From contig CALXPV010000003.1 of NCBI GenBank assembly GCA_944390295.1, forward strand, positions 1 to 44,644: a stretch of 44,644 nucleotides of DNA. The letters are read 5' to 3'. The first letter of the stretch is position 1. The number at the start of each line of letters is the position of its first letter. The translations under genes and the position numbers were made by a program. Below the pieces are notes generated by a model. The model was not told where the DNA came from. It saw nothing but the letters and a program-made list of their open reading frames with translations, and searched no databases. This document shows positions 37,152 through 44,644 of the stretch, in pieces. This DNA comes from an uncultured Clostridia bacterium. GTDB taxonomy: Bacteria; Bacillota; Clostridia; TANB77; CAG-508.

Positions 37152-37895
37152 ATGGATAAAGATGTTGTAATAAAATTTAATCATGTTACAAAAAGATATA
37201 AATTGTATAAAAATGATAAGCAAAGATTATTAGGTATATTTTTAAAAAAAGTAAAATATAAAGAAAAAAATGCAGTAGATGATGTGACTTTTGACATAAA
37301 AAGAGGAGAATCGGTTGCAATATTTGGTAAAAATGGTGCAGGAAAATCTACTATTTTAAAAATGATAACAGGAGTAGCTTTTCAAACTACTGGAGATATA
37401 GAAGTAAATGGAAGAGTTAGTGCACTATTAGAGCTAACCGCTGGATTTGACCCAGAGTTTACAGGAAGAGAAAATATATACCTAAAAGGTCAAATATTAG
37501 GACTAAATGATAGTGAAATTAAAAAAATAGAAAATAAAATAGTTAATTTTGCAGAACTTGAAGAATATATAGATCAGCCTGTAAGAACATATTCTAGTGG
37601 TATGAAGGCAAGATTAGGTTTTTCTATTAATGTTAATATAGAACCAGAAATCTTAATTGTAGACGAAGCATTAAGCGTAGGAGACGAACAATTTAAGAAC
37701 AAATGTATAACAAAGATAAATAAGTTGATAAAAAAAGAAAATGTAACTTTATTATTTGTTACACACTCTACTGCTACAGCTACAGAATTTTGTAAACGTG
37801 GATTGATAATGAAAAAAGGAAAGTTAATATTTGATGGAGATATAAAAGACGCAGAAGCAAAATATAAAGATATGATAAAAAATAAAAAATTATAG
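37152..37895 (+). CDS. tagH: Teichoic acid ABC transporter ATP-binding protein
   Basis: GKNGAGKST, ELTAGF, TGREN, YSSGMKARLGF, IVDEALSVGD. Confidence 0.9.
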   Translation: MDKDVVIKFNHVTKRYKLYKNDKQRLLGIFLKKVKYKEKNAVDDVTFDIKRGESVAIFGKNGAGKSTILKMITGVAFQTTGDIEVNGRVSALLELTAGFDPEFTGRENIYLKGQILGLNDSEIKKIENKIVNFAELEEYIDQPVRTYSSGMKARLGFSINVNIEPEILIVDEALSVGDEQFKNKCITKINKLIKKENVTLLFVTHSTATATEFCKRGLIMKKGKLIFDGDIKDAEAKYKDMIKNKKL

Positions 37896-37919: not shown

Positions 37920-37961
37920 AAAAGCGTATTTAAAAGATTTAATCTTTAGATACGCTTTTTT
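37920..37961 (+). terminator. Intrinsic terminator after tagH
   Basis: AAAAGCGTAT...AAAGATT-T-AATCTTT...ATACGCTTTT followed by T's. Confidence 0.75.
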
Positions 37962-38130
37962 GTGGTATAGGAAAAATTACTTTTTCCTATACCACAAAAA
38001 TAACATTGCACAGAAAAATTGCATAGCAATTTTTCGCGTCTACAAATCTTTACGCTTCTTCGAGAACTTAAATATAAATAGTTAAATAAAAAAGTAGAGA
38101 AAAGTTCTCGCGAAGCGAGATTTGTTCTAT
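37957..38130. repeat. Structured intergenic element, copy 1 (three stems; candidate ncRNA or REP/MITE-like element)
   Basis: 20-bp stem 37957-38000, linker TAACATTGCACA, 10-bp stem 38013-38035, GCG, long bulged stem 38042-38125, TCTAT; homologous to 44405-44554. Confidence 0.8.
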
Positions 38131-38168
38131 TAGAAAAACTTATATTTATTTTTCTAATCATATAAGAA

Positions 38169-38197
38169 TTTACATAAATAGAAAAATATGTTATAAT
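38169..38197 (+). promoter_or_regulatory. Sigma-A promoter of the hypothetical three-gene cassette
   Basis: TTTACA-17 nt-TATAAT with TG; AAGGAGG RBS before ATG 38241. Confidence 0.7.
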
Positions 38198-38240
38198 ATA
38201 TAATGTAACAAAATGGAAATACATAAGGAGGAACACAAAG

Positions 38241-38492
38241 ATGATGACGGACAGCAAGGATTTAGTTTCGGAAATAAACGAGATGATTGATTCGTTTATG
38301 AAGAAACCTCCAAAGACTCTTTCTCACAGAGGGAGAGTCTATTGTGAAACCGATCTTCTAGAAATCAAGACAGCGGTCAATGATTTGTTAGAAGATAAGG
38401 ACGCACCTGGAACTCAGGATATGCTTAAAGCATATTGCGACCAGGTTAAACAAATTACAGGGAAGGGGCAGGACAAGGGACAGCCTGCCTAG
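38241..38492 (+). CDS. Hypothetical protein (83 aa)
   Basis: Strong RBS and promoter; visibly GC-richer codon usage than neighbours. Confidence 0.7.
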   Translation: MMTDSKDLVSEINEMIDSFMKKPPKTLSHRGRVYCETDLLEIKTAVNDLLEDKDAPGTQDMLKAYCDQVKQITGKGQDKGQPA

Positions 38493-38516
38493 TCCCTATA
38501 TAAAAGGTGATTAAAA

Positions 38517-39554
38517 ATGAGAATAGATTATAAAAAATTAAATAAAGAAGTGCGTATGGAAAAAACTAATGGTATTGTTAAGTTTTTTATGAAAAATGGA
38601 AAAAAATTTGAATTAGATAATTATGAAAGTTTAGATAATGAAGAAAGATTAGATCTTTTGGCAGAAACTGGTGAAACAATAGATCCAGGTTATAGAGTAA
38701 AGTTTAAAAAATTAGAAGATAGAAAGCCAGAAGATAATAGAATAGAATTAGAAAGTGATTTTACCTTACAGGAAGTAATGGAATCTGCAAAAGGTATACC
38801 TATAACTGAAAAGGCATTAGAAATATTTTATTCTAATCGTATAGCCCATACATGTAGAGATGCTCAAAAAAAGATGTTATCTGATTTACTTGATAATCTT
38901 AAAGATACATATAAAGACTTTAATAGTTTGGAATATGAATTTACGCCAAAAGAATTAAATCAAACAACTCAAACATTACATAGATATTTTATAGCAGAAA
39001 AAACTAAAAATATTAATGCAAAGAAAATTGCAAAAGCACAACTAGGAAGGAAGTTAATAGGAGATGAAGAGATAGAAGAATTAAGAAAAAGAGGTTTTGA
39101 TGTATTATCAAAAGGATATATTGATTGTATGTCTATAAAAGATGCAGCAATAGCTGAAAGTATAGAATTACTTAAAGATGATGAGACACAATCATTTGGA
39201 TTAAGTAGACAGAAAAACAAAAAAACAGGTAAGATAGAAGATTTTTTTGTAATAGATGTGCAAGGATATGGGCAAATGTCAGTACATATATATGATCCAG
39301 AATTAATTTCGTCATTATCAGAACATGAATATACATATCCTATTTATCAAGTGGATAATATTTTATTATTTGAAAGAACTTCTAAATACCAAGAAAGTTT
39401 TTATAGATTAGGAAATGATGAAGAAGTAGTAAAAAAATTAAAAGAAATAGGACCAAATGCAGACACACATGAAGTAGCTGTAAAAGGAATGTTAACAAAA
39501 CAACAAATGGATATAATATATGGTAAAACAAATGATGAGGAGGATGGAAGATAA
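38517..39554 (+). CDS. Hypothetical protein (345 aa)
   Basis: Long ORF with host-like codon use and AAGGTG RBS; soluble and acidic; motifs NRIAH and VIDVQGYGQMSVH. Confidence 0.8.
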   Translation: MRIDYKKLNKEVRMEKTNGIVKFFMKNGKKFELDNYESLDNEERLDLLAETGETIDPGYRVKFKKLEDRKPEDNRIELESDFTLQEVMESAKGIPITEKALEIFYSNRIAHTCRDAQKKMLSDLLDNLKDTYKDFNSLEYEFTPKELNQTTQTLHRYFIAEKTKNINAKKIAKAQLGRKLIGDEEIEELRKRGFDVLSKGYIDCMSIKDAAIAESIELLKDDETQSFGLSRQKNKKTGKIEDFFVIDVQGYGQMSVHIYDPELISSLSEHEYTYPIYQVDNILLFERTSKYQESFYRLGNDEEVVKKLKEIGPNADTHEVAVKGMLTKQQMDIIYGKTNDEEDGR

Positions 39555-42181: not shown

Positions 42182-44404
42182 TTGGAATTAGAGGGACAAT
42201 TAACAGAAATAATATATCAAAATGAAGCAAATAGTTATTTAATTGGAATATTAGAAAATGAAGAAGATACTATAACAGTAGTAGGATATATGCCTTTTGT
42301 GGTAGAAGGAGATTATATAAAAGTAATAGGAAATTTTGTTGTACATAGAGAATACGGAAAACAATTTAAAGTAGAAACTTTCGAAAAGGTAATGCCAAAA
42401 ACGCTAGAATCTTTAGAAAGATATTTGGCAAATGGAACTATAAAAGGAATAGGACCTGCAACTGCTAAAAAGATAGTAAAAACCTTTGGTGAAGATACAA
42501 TTCATGTATTTAAATTTGAGCCAGAAAAATTAACTGTAATAAAAGGAATATCAAAAGAAAAAGCAAAAGAAATGGCAGAAAGTTTTGTAGAAAACTGGGA
42601 TCTATGGCAAATAGTAGGCTATTTAGAAAACTTTGGAATAGGACCAGCTAATGCTAAAAATGTATATAAAAAATTAGGTTCACAAACAATAGATGAAATA
42701 GAAGAAAATCCGTATATATTAATAGATTTAGTAAAAGGTGTAGATTTTACTAAGATAGATGATTATGCACTAAAAAATGGGTTTGATATTAACAATTATA
42801 AAAGAATTAAATGTGGAATTAAGTATAGTTTAATTAAAATTACATATAATGGTCATTGTTGTACTTTAGAAAATAATTTAATTAAATATGTAAAAGACTT
42901 ACTAAAAGCAGATGAAGATGATATAGAACATTGCTTAATTGATTTAAGTGTAAAAGATGAAATCGTAATAGAAAAAAGAGAAGATGAAAATTGGGTTTAT
43001 GACAAAGAAATGTATGATGCAGAAGCAAATATTGCAAGTAAATTAATATTGTTAGATTCTGCAAAAAACATAAAACATATACCACATTTTGATGATGAAT
43101 TAAAGAAAATAGAAAAAAGTAGTAATATTAGTTTATCTAAAAAACAAAAAGAAGCGATAAAGTCTATTAATACTAATAATGTAGTAATAATAACAGGTGG
43201 TCCGGGAACAGGAAAGACAACAATTATAAAAAATGTTATAGATATTTATAAATCATATGGTAAAAAAGTAGTACTTTGTGCACCAACAGGACGAGCTGCT
43301 AAAAGAATGACAGAACTTACAGGAGAAGAGGCTAAAACACTACATAGGCTATTAGAAATAGGAAAAATAGAAAAAGATAATGAATTTACAATTATGAATT
43401 ATGAAGTTGCACCAATAGATGCAGATGTAATAATTGTAGATGAAGCATCAATGGTAGATATTTATTTAATGAATTACTTACTAAATGGAATATATCAAGG
43501 AACAAAATTAATTTTAGTAGGAGATACAGACCAATTACCTTCAGTAGGTCCAGGAAGTGTTTTGAAAGATATAATAAATTCTGAAAAGATTAAGACAATA
43601 TTTTTAGACGAAATATTTAGACAAGCAGCAGAAAGCAAAATAATAGTTAATTCACATAGAGTAAATGAAGGAGAATATTTTTTAACCAAAGAAGAGGAAG
43701 AAGGATTAAAGGATGATTTCTTCTATATAAAAGAAAAAAGCCAAGAAATAATGCTAGAACAAATAGTTTCTTTAAGTAAAGGTAGATTAAAAAATTTTGG
43801 GAATTACGATTTTTTCGAAAATATACAAATTCTTTCTCCAACTAAAAAAGGAATGTTAGGAACTAAAGAATTAAATAAAAAACTTCAAGAAGAATTGAAT
43901 CCAGAAGATGACATAAAAAAAGAGAAAAAGATTGGAGAAGTTATTTTTAGAGAAGGCGACAGAGTTATGCAAGTAAAAAACAACTATGACATCTATTGGG
44001 AGAAAGGTAACTCTTTAAGCTTAAAATATGAAAATGGAACAGGAATTTTTAATGGGGAACTTGGTAGAATTGAAAAAATTGATTTTATAAATAAACAAAT
44101 AAAAATATTATTTGATGATGAAAAAGAAGCTTGGTATGAATTTACTGATATGGATCAAATAGAGCATGCATATGCAATAACAATACATAAAGCACAAGGT
44201 AGTGAATTTGATGTTGTAATAATGGTTGCAAGTGGTTCTTCTTCAATGCTTCTTACAAGGAATTTATTATACACAGGTTTAACAAGAGCAAAAAAATTAT
44301 TAATATTAATAGGAAATGATAATGTAGTAAAATTTATGATAAAAAATGCGGATACCAAAATAAGAAATACAGGGTTAGAATATAAATTAAAAATGATTTC
44401 ATAA
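42182..44404 (+). CDS. recD2: ATP-dependent RecD-like DNA helicase RecD2
   Basis: N-term OB/HhH (KGIGPATA), TGGPGTGKT, APTGRAA, VDEASM, GDTDQL, RQA, AYAITIHKAQGSEF, RNLLYTGLTRA; TTG start. Confidence 0.95.
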   Translation: MELEGQLTEIIYQNEANSYLIGILENEEDTITVVGYMPFVVEGDYIKVIGNFVVHREYGKQFKVETFEKVMPKTLESLERYLANGTIKGIGPATAKKIVKTFGEDTIHVFKFEPEKLTVIKGISKEKAKEMAESFVENWDLWQIVGYLENFGIGPANAKNVYKKLGSQTIDEIEENPYILIDLVKGVDFTKIDDYALKNGFDINNYKRIKCGIKYSLIKITYNGHCCTLENNLIKYVKDLLKADEDDIEHCLIDLSVKDEIVIEKREDENWVYDKEMYDAEANIASKLILLDSAKNIKHIPHFDDELKKIEKSSNISLSKKQKEAIKSINTNNVVIITGGPGTGKTTIIKNVIDIYKSYGKKVVLCAPTGRAAKRMTELTGEEAKTLHRLLEIGKIEKDNEFTIMNYEVAPIDADVIIVDEASMVDIYLMNYLLNGIYQGTKLILVGDTDQLPSVGPGSVLKDIINSEKIKTIFLDEIFRQAAESKIIVNSHRVNEGEYFLTKEEEEGLKDDFFYIKEKSQEIMLEQIVSLSKGRLKNFGNYDFFENIQILSPTKKGMLGTKELNKKLQEELNPEDDIKKEKKIGEVIFREGDRVMQVKNNYDIYWEKGNSLSLKYENGTGIFNGELGRIEKIDFINKQIKILFDDEKEAWYEFTDMDQIEHAYAITIHKAQGSEFDVVIMVASGSSSMLLTRNLLYTGLTRAKKLLILIGNDNVVKFMIKNADTKIRNTGLEYKLKMIS

Positions 44405-44554
44405 TTTTTATTGTATAGGAAAGTTATACTTTCCTATACAATAAAAATAGCATTTCACACAAAATTGCAAAGCAATTTTGGCGAGCGAACAAAGACGCGG
44501 GCGATGAAAAATTTAAAAATAGCAGAGAGTTAAAAGAGCCCGCTTTTGTTCTAT
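44405..44554. repeat. Structured intergenic element, copy 2
   Basis: 20-bp stem 44405-44447, linker TAGCATTTCACA, 9-bp stem 44460-44480, GCG, stem GAACAAAG-ac-GCGGGC / GCCCGC-TTTTGTTC, then TAT. Confidence 0.8.
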
Positions 44555-44644
44555 GGGGGCACTTTTAAGACTAACTATATGAAGTCAATAGGAAAATGAA
44601 ATTTTATTAAAATTTTTAAATAGTTAATTGTACATTGAAAATTG

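What the first reader, a model, noticed from the sequence alone, without database searches (positions are those of the whole stretch)
37957..38130. Three-stem structured element repeated at 44405-44554 with compensatory changes in all stems
Seen: both copies run stem 1 (20 bp, core GTATAGGAAA/TTTCCTATAC; GTG/CAC swapped for ATT/AAT and AA/TT for GT/AC), then a 12-nt linker TA[AG]CATT[GT]CACA. Stem 2 follows (AAAATTGC-3 nt-GCAATTTT, closed by G-C versus C-G), then GCG. Stem 3 has ACAAA../..TTTGT, a bulge, then CGCTTC/GAAGCG versus GCGGGC/GCCCGC with a variable AT-rich loop, and both copies end TTTGTTCTAT. Conserved unpaired linkers plus covarying stems indicate selection on structure. I do not recognise it as a known riboswitch, tRNA, ribozyme or CRISPR repeat. 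Inference: an undescribed ncRNA class or a REP/MITE-like element processed as ssDNA/RNA by an enzyme encoded elsewhere.
Basis: partly seen in the sequence, partly recalled or inferred. Interest (0 to 1): 0.85.

Follow-up and report, generated by a model that had tools for sequence, protein, structure and literature searches.

The report
Structured mobile repeat behind gene ends
The two look-alike stretches are copies of a small, gene-less, hairpin-folded repeat that has multiplied through the genomes of one family of uncultured gut Clostridia and usually sits just behind gene ends; it is a new family of a familiar kind of bacterial "junk-or-regulator" repeat, not a new class of RNA gene.

Summary
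The two copies are not a pair. They belong to a dispersed, modular repeat superfamily.

- **Copy number:** the covariance model finds 30 core matches in this 1.5-Mb genome. Twelve are near-identical to copy 1.
- **Distribution:** in an order-level sample, 21 of 151 genomes carry 1 to 25 or more copies. All but one are in a single family of uncultured gut Clostridia.
- **Anatomy of a unit:** a long AT-rich palindrome (P1), a conserved linker, a short hairpin (P2) closed by a newly seen 3-bp helix, and a long terminator-like hairpin (P3) ending in TTTGTTCT.
- **Covariation:** 16 to 19 of 25 pairs change on both sides, and 0 of 500 shuffles match this.
- **Known families:** nothing in Rfam matches.
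- **Placement:** the core points the same way as the upstream gene in 18 of 19 and 80 of 97 cases, usually just after a terminator.
- **Mobility:** insertion sites differ between sister species. Twenty relatives lack copy 2 at its exact site.
- **Mechanism:** I saw no terminal inverted repeats and no target duplication, and I identified no transposase.

My best reading is a non-autonomous mobile repeat of the BOX/SPRITE/bcr1/REP kind. An RNA-level role remains open. The scan has noted similar repeats in other gut Clostridia genomes.

The parts
37152..37895 (+). Upstream gene of copy 1 (ABC transporter ATPase), in the same direction as the element
   Evidence: ORF; Pfam ABC_tran E = 2.3e-20
37920..37961 (+). 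Host terminator-like hairpin (gcgtat...atacgc) plus T-run, directly abutting copy 1
   Evidence: Sequence. The same arrangement, with a different hairpin sequence each time, is visible upstream of the aligned copies. The 40 nt upstream of P1 fold at -6 kcal/mol or better in 12 of 18 and 45 of 79 copies, against 10.7% of random windows.
37956..38129 (+). Copy 1, a full unit of subfamily 'type A' (T-run, P1, linker, P2, P3, TTTGTTCTA)
   Evidence: 12 places in the genome cover nearly its whole length at 83-100% identity. Boundaries come from diverging contigs (table 7).
37957..38000 (+). P1: 20-bp AT-rich near-perfect palindrome with core GTATAGGAAA/TTTCCTATAC
   Evidence: Fold. Strong P1-type hairpins occur in 96 of 122 unique upstream regions, median stem 19 bp, 1721 of 1776 pairs Watson-Crick.
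38007..38040 (+). Conserved linker CATTGCACAG, the P2 hairpin (38013-38035) and its short closing helix (P2a)
   Evidence: In the family, the middle P2a pair is G-C in 35, U-A in 11 and C-G in 11 of 63 sequences.
38042..38125 (+). P3: outer helix ACAAA/TTTGT, internal loop, GC-rich inner helix, A-rich loop of about 35 nt
   Evidence: Fold; covariation
38106..38129 (+). Local hairpin TCTCGC-GAA-GCGAGA followed by TTTGTTCTA. It is terminator-like and competes with P3. Specific to type A.
   Evidence: Flagged on both strands by the scan
38169..38197 (+). Promoter-like site of the downstream operon (TTTACA, 17 nt, TATAAT). It is not part of the element.
   Evidence: The same promoter sequence is conserved in relatives that have a different upstream neighbour.
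42182..44404 (+). recD2-type helicase gene. Its stop codon directly abuts copy 2.
   Evidence: HHH_RecD2, OB_YrrC, SH3_13 and other domains
44405..44554 (+). Copy 2, a full unit of a different subfamily (core CACAC...GGCGAGCGAACAAAGAC)
   Evidence: Model R1 gives 100.7 bits. It is absent from the same site in 20 related metagenome loci.
44404..44448 (+). P1 of copy 2
   Evidence: Fold
44450..44486 (+). P2a and P2 of copy 2
   Evidence: Fold; alignment
44487..44551 (+). P3 of copy 2 (GAACAAAG...CTTTTGTTC outside, GCGGGC/GCCCGC inside)
   Evidence: Fold
44555..44561 (+). TGGGGGC motif. This is ancestral flank that in relatives lies 7-8 nt after the recD2 stop codon.

Best explanation
The two stretches are copies of a non-autonomous, modular, mobile intergenic repeat. 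This family is specific to one family of uncultured, AT-rich gut Clostridia.

A unit is built from two modules. One is a P1 palindrome, which also occurs alone. The other is a conserved core (P2a/P2 plus P3), which also occurs without P1. The unit ends in a terminator-like hairpin followed by TTTGTTCT.

Units have spread within genomes and between sister species. They land in intergenic DNA on the 3' side of genes, typically right after an intrinsic terminator or another unit, and point the same way as the upstream gene.

Shown: multiplicity, patchy distribution, insertion polymorphism, the structure with its covariation, and the placement.

Inferred: the structure is kept because the element works as a single strand. 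Either it moves as single-stranded DNA, cut and pasted by a trans-acting enzyme that leaves no target duplication (HUH/Y1-type is the leading candidate). Or its transcript must fold, as a terminator or insulator or as a 3' end protector. I cannot tell these two apart with the data to hand.
For: Multiplicity:
- 12 near-full-length type A copies in the genome at 83-100% identity.
- 30 core matches at E <= 0.01.
- DNA-run depth over the element is 434-629, against about 20 on the flanks.

Decay series:
- Truncated and degenerate copies exist, for example at C23, C10, C9, C6 and C44.

Modularity:
- The type A P1 is joined to another subfamily's core at C46:6156.
- A core stands without P1 at C1:1787, and P1 stands alone at C106.
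- Units abut one another at C104, C42, C75 and C2.

Patchy spread:
- 21 of 151 genomes in the order-level sample carry it: 19 of 52 in family f1, 1 of 52 in f3, and 0 of 46 in the other three families. Copy numbers run from 1 to 25 or more.
- Type A is multi-copy in only 3 other species of 24 sampled in the genus, and single in a fourth.
- The core pattern hit 100 stretches in genome contigs. All but one of the 80 listed titles are Clostridia-class bins, nearly all labelled MAG or uncultured; one is labelled Bacilli.

Insertion polymorphism:
- Copy 2 lies between the recD2 stop codon and a TGGGGGC motif.
- In 14 related loci that spacer is 7-8 nt. Six more have a spacer of tens of nt, also without the element.
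- Of 8 type A loci in sister species whose two flanks map to one contig here, 2 carry an element here and 6 do not.

Cross-species similarity:
- 12 of 27 type A copies have their nearest relative in another species, at 92-94% identity apart from the orthologous G000/G014 pair (98.2%) and the lone, more diverged G005 and G014:C19 copies (85-88%).
- Flanking genes are only 76-83% identical.

Placement:
- The core is co-oriented with the upstream ORF in 18 of 19 cases here and 80 of 97 elsewhere.
- Hairpins are enriched just upstream of P1.

Structure:
- Covariation is strong.
- The nine highest mutual-information column pairs are all modelled base pairs.

Not a gene or a known RNA:
- Rfam gives no match.
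- The small ORFs inside the two copies are not conserved.
- No internal promoter-like site was found.
Against: - I saw no terminal inverted repeats and no target-site duplication, by eye on 14 aligned copies and at the copy 2 site.
- No autonomous parent element was found.
- No mobilising enzyme was identified. There is no TnpB match over its cut-off, no reverse transcriptase and no IS110 match over its cut-off.
- Y1 transposase genes occur in 16 of 19 element-positive genomes and in 11 of 20 element-negative genomes, so 3 positive genomes lack them.
- The two RAYT-like genes here are flanked by a different hairpin family.
- The ends of an IS200-type copy in a relative look unrelated.
- No exact filled-versus-empty pair between strains was obtained. 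The empty sites come from other species, and the DNA downstream of copy 2 is rearranged in this genome.
- The three-helix core with invariant unpaired bases across 10 genera looks more like a functional RNA than most MITEs do.
- One orthologous copy is 98.2% identical between two species whose surrounding 3.2 kb is 93% identical. This hints at purifying selection.
Confidence: 0.7

Rival explanations
1. It is primarily a functional RNA module. On this reading it is a cis-acting 3'-UTR element that terminates or insulates transcription, or shields the upstream mRNA's 3' end. Alternatively it is a multi-copy small RNA. Its copies would persist because the host uses them, and mobility would be only how they arose.
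For: - Covariation includes an isolated closing pair that takes three Watson-Crick forms: G-C 35, U-A 11, C-G 11 of 63.
- The unpaired bases ACA, GGCG and GAC are invariant across genera.
- The core points the same way as the upstream gene in 18 of 19 and 80 of 97 cases.
- P3 plus a U-rich tail looks like a terminator. In 16 of 27 convergent contexts the element ends within 25 nt of, or overlaps, the opposing gene's end.
- Two positions prefer G-U on this strand: 55 of 63 at one, and U-G 32 versus U-A 27 at the other.
- An orthologous copy is more conserved than its flanks, 98.2% against 93%.
- Two chicken-gut metatranscriptome assemblies hold contigs with pieces of the element.
Against: - Copy number swings from 0 to 25 or more between congeneric species.
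- Positions are mostly not shared between sister species: 6 of 8 are not.
- Decayed copies exist.
- No promoter-like site lies inside the element.
- Both strands fold equally well.
- Among variable pairs, G-U and A-C exceptions are about equal. In P1, A-C outnumbers G-T 25 to 13. The strand signal therefore rests on two positions.
- Orientation is confounded with the leading strand: 20 of 21 and 92 of 110 copies lie on the G-rich strand.
- The RNA evidence is assembled contigs only. These cannot show strand, ends or level, and may include DNA carry-over.
- The P3 loop of about 30 nt is long for an intrinsic terminator, and the scan flagged no terminator in copy 2.
Confidence: 0.2
2. The units are end-fragments, or deletion derivatives, of an autonomous insertion sequence. 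The best candidate type is an IS200/IS605 or IS91-like HUH element, which also have hairpin ends and leave no target duplication. The full-length parent would be absent from, or unassembled in, the genomes examined.
For: - Each end carries a hairpin, there are no inverted terminal repeats, and no target duplication was seen.
- Unrelated-looking repeat families in this genome share the same kind of 5' hairpin (TATAGGAAA core) and the same kind of 3' end (GC hairpin plus TTTTnTTCT). That pattern is what a shared transposase would produce.
- Y1-domain genes are common in the lineage, in 27 of 39 genomes.
Against: - No locus was seen in which the two ends flank an ORF.
- IS200-type copies in relatives have unrelated ends, and they occur in genomes without the element.
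- There is no TnpB over its cut-off in this genome.
- The pattern and sequence gave no match in viral contigs, phage records or plasmid records.
Confidence: 0.08
3. The resemblance between the two stretches is chance similarity of AT-rich hairpin DNA, or an assembly artefact.
For: The genome is 27% G+C and is a fragmented bin of 113 contigs.
Against: - There are dozens of copies with register-perfect conserved linkers across at least 21 genomes.
- 0 of 500 shuffles reach the observed covariation.
- The fold z-scores are about -9 to -10.
- The element is present in independent assemblies and sequencing runs.
Confidence: 0.01

Closest known systems
BOX elements of Streptococcus pneumoniae (boxA-boxB-boxC). 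Source: passages read in PMC3049150.
   Same: - Short, non-coding and modular, with modules that can be missing or repeated.
- Strongly folded, AT-rich and multi-copy.
- Copies cluster with, and insert next to, other repeats.
- Restricted to a narrow lineage.
- Thought to act on co-transcribed genes.
   Different: - BOX has terminal inverted repeats and makes target duplications. I saw none here.
- There is no sign of sequence relatedness, although I ran no direct comparison with BOX sequence.
- This family is much more strictly co-oriented with the upstream gene (82-95%) than BOX, RUP and SPRITE, which sit 61-63% on the leading strand in that paper.
[quoted passage not shown] Source: passages read in PMC3049150; also listed in PMC10969869 and PMC3184786.
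   Same: - A terminator-like hairpin with a U-rich tail.
- Enriched close to the 3' ends of genes and between convergent genes.
- No clear target duplication or empty site is known.
- Proposed to have been co-opted as a terminator.
   Different: - SPRITE is a single long duplex plus a U-tract of about 105-150 nt.
- This element has three to four helices, with a conserved junction and a separate 5' palindrome.
- The two occur in different phylogenetic groups.
bcr1 of the Bacillus cereus group. Source: passages read in the review PMC3184786; the primary papers were not read.
   Same: - About 155 bp in a Gram-positive host.
- Its genomic positions are not conserved between strains.
- It is transcribed, and compensatory changes keep a two-stem-loop RNA structure.
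- It is regarded as a special class of mobile sequence.
   Different: - bcr1 is flanked by 5-bp direct repeats. None were seen here.
- Transcription of the present family is not shown.
REP/REPIN elements with their RAYT (Y1 HUH) transposases. Source: passages in PMC3184786; abstract of PMC3733652.
   Same: - Hairpin repeats in intergenic DNA, often behind genes.
- No target duplication.
- Presumed to move as single-stranded DNA by an enzyme encoded elsewhere.
- P1 on its own is REP-sized, at about 45 nt.
   Different: - A genuine REP-like family with its own RAYT-like genes coexists in this genome and is a different sequence.
- The present unit is 150-175 nt with a non-palindromic structured core.
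- It does not flank any Y1 gene.
IS200/IS605-derived miniature elements (PATEs).
   Same: - Subterminal hairpins, no inverted repeats and no target duplication.
- Strand-specific single-strand mechanism.
- An orientation bias linked to replication direction would be expected.
   Different: - No cognate IS was found.
- The left and right hairpins are unlike each other.
- I could not define a conserved target tetra- or pentanucleotide.

Membership tests
Any Rfam 15 RNA family | Score at or above the family's gathering threshold | tested here: not met
   0 matches in the whole window at gathering thresholds. Around both copies the best sub-threshold hits were unrelated microRNA or sRNA models, at 10-30 bits against cut-offs of 38-200.
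MITE (classical, DDE-transposase derived) | Terminal inverted repeats | tested here: not met
   [quoted passage not shown] The only inverted repeat is P1, which lies wholly at the 5' end.
MITE (classical, DDE-transposase derived) | Target-site duplication flanking each copy | tested here: not met
   No direct repeat flanks the 14 aligned copies. None is seen at the copy 2 site when compared with the empty sites. This was checked by eye, not by a statistical test.
MITE (classical, DDE-transposase derived) | Small, non-coding, multi-copy, with presence/absence polymorphism | tested here: met
   Units are 150-175 nt. There are 30 core matches in the genome. The internal ORFs are not conserved. 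Polymorphism is shown.
REP/REPIN-RAYT | Repeats flank the cognate RAYT gene, and the repeat is a 20-40-nt palindrome | tested here: not met
   Both RAYT-like genes are flanked by hairpins centred on GGGACGGTCC, not by P1 or the core. The unit is 150-175 nt.
REP/REPIN-RAYT | Co-occurrence of the repeat with a Y1 transposase gene across genomes | tested here: inconclusive
   Y1_Tnp is present in 16 of 19 element-positive and 11 of 20 element-negative genomes. Three positive genomes have none.
IS200/IS605-derived miniature element | Ends homologous to those of a resident IS200/IS605 copy | tested here: not met
   The ends of an IS200-type copy in G164 carry GC-rich GTAAAAC-loop hairpins unrelated to P1 or P3. 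That locus holds no forward TATAGGAAA word and one TTTTGTTCT word, about 640 nt beyond the IS end. Only one such locus was inspected.
Intrinsic (Rho-independent) terminator | GC-rich stem, loop of 3-8 nt, then a T-run | tested here: inconclusive
   In copy 1 the scan flags only a local hairpin at 38106-38120, not P3. It flags nothing in copy 2. The P3 loop is about 30-36 nt. Terminator function was not tested.
BOX / SPRITE / bcr1 (as sequence families) | Sequence homology to the published consensus | not tested
The resemblance is in organisation only.
Group IIC intron (terminator-targeting retroelement) | Six-domain ribozyme and, in the genome, an intron-type reverse transcriptase | tested here: not met
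   There is no group II intron hit in Rfam. RVT_1 has no match in the genome, which is 89% complete. The unit is only 150-175 nt.

The most novel reading that the evidence does not exclude
The core (P2a/P2 plus P3, with invariant ACA, GGCG and GAC junction bases) is a true functional single-stranded fold conserved across at least 10 genera. On this reading the family is a strand-specific mobile element that homes to the 3' side of terminator hairpins. It would do so by a mechanism that leaves no target duplication and has no identifiable resident transposase. One possibility is mobilisation in trans by domesticated RAYT-like Y1 enzymes, with a recognition fold unlike any described REP. Another is mobilisation through its RNA. 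After landing it would serve the host as a portable terminator or 3'-end module.
Probability: 0.2. Interest if true: 0.7.

Novelty: new member of a known kind. Interest (0 to 1): 0.4.

Why it matters
Small structured repeats such as BOX, SPRITE, bcr1 and REP are common, yet for most of them nobody knows what moves them or whether the host uses them. This family gives an unusually clean case:

- It has a well-defined fold with many compensatory changes.
- It is placed strictly behind genes.
- It has closely similar copies at different sites in sister species.
- It shares a genome with a separate REP family that has its own RAYT-like genes.

That makes the question "which enzyme moves such repeats, and as DNA or RNA?" testable in one lineage.

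Practically, these repeats break short-read assemblies of gut Clostridia. Several copies here lie at contig ends. They can also be mistaken for small-RNA genes.

Tried and rejected
- **Rfam:** gathering and E-value modes gave nothing.
- **Coding reading:** the 41- and 40-aa ORFs inside the copies share only 'YRK'. Rejected.
- **Internal promoter:** the scan found none inside either copy. My hand-read candidate hexamers were not conserved between subfamilies.
- **Strand from thermodynamics:** both strands fold equally well.
- **Strand from wobble pairs in P1:** G-T 13 against A-C 25, so no signal.
- **Gene direction versus replication direction:** discordant cases split about evenly, and skew measured on 8-kb loci is noisy. 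Unresolved.
- **Candidate enzymes in this genome:** PF07282 (TnpB) scored below its cut-off. PF00078 had no match. PF01548 scored below its cut-off.
- **Y1_Tnp correlation across 39 genomes:** weak.
- **IS200 ends in a relative:** unrelated.
- **DNA-uptake-sequence idea for the P1 core:** the word GTATAGGAAA occurs 63 times against about 6 expected. The P1 hairpins themselves account for that. Rejected.
- **First terminator-detector script:** it undercounted because the T-run is part of P1. I replaced it with the folding-energy test.
- **Empty site for copy 1:** relatives have a different upstream neighbour, so no comparison was possible.
- **RNA evidence:** only assembled contigs of RNA libraries were served. 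Pieces of the element occur in two runs, but strand, ends and level cannot be read, and parts without cover mean nothing.
- **A DNA-run joint skipping 44438-44567:** one contig with only 23 letters on the shorter side. Too weak to count as a core-less allele.
- **Viral contigs, phage records and plasmid records:** no match.
- **Earlier-findings look-ups by sequence:** one unrelated window for copy 2 and nothing for copy 1.
- **Literature:** searches found no description of such a repeat in Clostridia. Supplements were closed and could hold repeat catalogues I did not see.

Full report
**What is there.** The window lies in a 1.5-Mb bin of 113 contigs with 27% G+C. The host is an uncultured gut Clostridia bacterium, judged from the titles of relatives' records. 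The runs that hold the stretch are mostly labelled chicken gut. Each folds into three hairpins with z-scores near -9 to -10, and the opposite strands fold just as well.

**It is a family, not a pair.**
- Copy 1 has 12 near-full-length relatives in this genome at 83-100% identity, plus many partial ones.
- Copy 2 belongs to a sister subfamily.
- I built a covariance model on 63 non-redundant cores. It finds 30 matches in the genome at E <= 0.01.
- In two DNA runs, summed depth over the element is 434-629 against about 20 on single-copy flanks. Contigs of other copies diverge at 37956/37957 and at 38128/38129, which fixes the unit's ends.
- Truncated and decayed copies exist.

**Anatomy.**
- From 5' to 3' a unit has a T-run, then P1, a near-perfect palindrome of about 20 bp with core TATAGGAAA/TTTCCTATA.
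- An A-run follows, and some subfamilies add a small GC hairpin (GCTTCGC).
- Next comes the linker CATTNCACA(C/G), then P2 (8-9 bp), then GGCG-N-N-CG.
- Last is P3, with outer helix GAACAAA/TTTGTTC, an internal loop, a GC-rich inner helix and an A-rich loop of about 30 nt. The unit ends in TTTGTTCT.
The N of CATTNC pairs with the first N after GGCG. That pair is G-C in 35, U-A in 11 and C-G in 11 of 63 sequences.
- The parts behave as modules. The type A P1 is joined to another core at C46. A core stands without P1 at C1. P1 stands alone at C106. Units abut each other at C104, C42, C75 and C2.
- Other repeat families in the genome share the same kind of 5' hairpin and 3' end around different interiors.

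**Is the structure real?**
- On the MAFFT alignment, 93.8% of cells pair, against 79.3% in column shuffles and 44-53% with slid partners. 16 of 25 pairs change on both sides. 0 of 500 shuffles reach the observed values on four of five measures (24 of 500 for further pair types).
- On 134 model-aligned copies, 96.3% of cells pair and 19 of 25 pairs change on both sides. That alignment leans towards the model.
- The selection pattern used to collect sequences fixed only unpaired linkers, so the stems were free to vary.
- The nine highest corrected mutual-information column pairs are all modelled pairs. I saw no extra long-range interaction.
- P1-type hairpins occur in 96 of 122 unique upstream regions, and 1721 of their 1776 pairs are Watson-Crick.

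**Which strand, and RNA or DNA?**
- Two positions prefer G-U on the strand shown. Among variable pairs, though, G-U and A-C exceptions are about equal. In P1, A-C outnumbers G-T 25 to 13.
- The core points the same way as the upstream ORF in 18 of 19 cases here and 80 of 97 elsewhere. It also lies on the G-rich strand in 20 of 21 and 92 of 110 cases, and discordant cases split evenly.
- RNA libraries were available only as assembled contigs. Pieces of the element occur in two of them, which proves little.
- A single-stranded form is therefore under selection. Whether that form is transcript or transposition intermediate is open.

**Placement.**
- The element usually follows a hairpin and T-run. 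The 40 nt upstream of P1 fold at -6 kcal/mol or better in 12 of 18 and 45 of 79 copies, against 10.7% of random windows.
- Sometimes that upstream hairpin is another unit's P3, or a REP-type hairpin.
- Placement after a terminator is not obligatory. Copy 2 sits directly on the recD2 stop codon, where relatives have no terminator. A few copies lie in divergent promoter regions.
- Copy 1 lies between the ABC-ATPase gene's terminator and the conserved promoter of the next operon.

**Mobility.**
- In an order-level sample, 21 of 151 genomes carry the core: 19 of 52 in the window's family, 1 of 52 in a second family, and none of 46 in three others. Copy numbers run from 1 to 25 or more, and 12 of 24 species in one genus have it.
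- Type A is multi-copy in only three other sampled species of the genus, and single in a fourth.
- Copy 2 sits between the recD2 stop codon and a TGGGGGC motif. Twenty metagenome loci with RecD2 at 85-89% identity lack the element there. Fourteen of them have only 7-8 nt between the stop codon and TGGGGGC.
- One caveat applies. DNA further downstream is rearranged in this genome, and comFC now lies on another contig.
- Of 8 type A loci in sister species whose flanks map to one contig here, 2 hold an element here and 6 do not.
- 12 of 27 type A copies have their nearest relative in another species, at 92-94% apart from one orthologous pair at 98.2% and two diverged copies at 85-88%. Flanking genes are 76-83% identical.
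- One orthologous pair is 98.2% identical inside a 3.2-kb region that is 93% identical overall.
- I found no match in viral contigs, phage records or plasmid records.

**What moves it?** This is unknown.
- I saw no inverted terminal repeats and no target duplication. That argues against a DDE transposase and fits HUH-type or recombinase mechanisms.
- The genome has two RAYT-like Y1 genes. They are flanked by a different, genuine REP-like family: roughly 70 hairpins centred on GGGACGGTCC, in two stem types that match the two genes.
- Y1 genes occur in 16 of 19 element-positive and 11 of 20 element-negative genomes.
- There is no reverse transcriptase, and no TnpB or IS110 match over the cut-offs. 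IS200 ends in a relative are unrelated.

**Comparison with known repeats.**
- In organisation the family resembles pneumococcal BOX, which is modular and clusters with other repeats. It also resembles SPRITE, which is terminator-like, lies close to gene 3' ends and has no known target duplication (passages of PMC3049150; PMC10969869).
- It resembles bcr1 of the Bacillus cereus group, which is about 155 bp, occupies non-conserved positions, and has compensatory changes that keep an RNA fold. bcr1, however, has 5-bp direct repeats (passages of PMC3184786).
- It fails the defining tests for a classical MITE, for REP/REPIN and for every Rfam family.
- I found no description of it (Rfam; paper search). 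That is not exhaustive, and supplements were closed.
- Earlier notes of this scan describe similar terminator-adjacent structured repeats in other gut Clostridia bins. Sequence look-ups found no shared family.

**Verdict.** It is best read as a new family of a known kind: a structured, non-autonomous intergenic repeat. The fold is unusually well supported and the placement unusually strict. Both the mobiliser and any host function are unknown.

Noticed in passing
L031:1462-2229 (G000 contig C12:29849-30616) and G000 contig C11:23656-24432; hairpins listed genome-wide: The genome carries two RAYT-like Y1 transposase genes of 255 and 258 aa. Each is flanked by hairpins centred on GGGACGGTCC, with stems of the 'GAACTTTA' type for one gene and the 'TAGGGATTT' type for the other. 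Roughly 70 such hairpins are scattered through the genome, often as inverted doublets. This looks like a REPIN-RAYT system, with two cognate pairs, in a Clostridia genome. In relatives the same hairpin type serves as the terminator after a gene.
   Followed up: partly
G000 contigs outside the window, e.g. C78:4845-5135, C13:4400-4620, C1:8421, C2:11418, C60:2741: At least two further repeat families start with a P1-like hairpin after a T-run and end in a GC hairpin plus TTTTCTT, but have different interiors. One occurs as a head-to-tail array with a 105-nt period at the end of contig C78. Another (TAGGAAAGTTCTCCTAGTAGGAGAAC...ATTATGGCGA) has at least 9 copies.
   Followed up: partly
window 44555-44600: A TGGGGGC motif 15-20 nt before the comFC-like start codon is conserved even in distant relatives. 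In this genome the motif and a degraded ribosome-binding and start region remain after copy 2, while the comFC gene itself now lies on contig C56 with a new upstream region. A rearrangement therefore adjoins the insertion.
   Followed up: partly
window 38160-38240: The promoter (TTTACA, 17 nt, TATAAT with TG) and leader of the downstream 83-aa/345-aa operon are conserved across the genus, while the upstream neighbour differs. It is a pyruvate-kinase-like gene in seven relatives and an ABC-transporter block here.
   Followed up: partly
G000 contig C5:40534-40704 versus L255 (G014:C11): An orthologous, older-type copy is 98.2% identical between two species although the surrounding 3.2 kb is 93% identical. 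This may reflect purifying selection on that copy.
   Followed up: partly
window 38241-39554: The two genes just downstream of copy 1 (83 aa and 345 aa) match no Pfam family at E <= 0.001.
   Followed up: no
window 38106-38120: In type A only, the 3' arm of P3 can instead form a small local hairpin followed by TTTGTTCT. The scan flags it as terminator-like on both strands. This alternative fold competes with P3.
   Followed up: no
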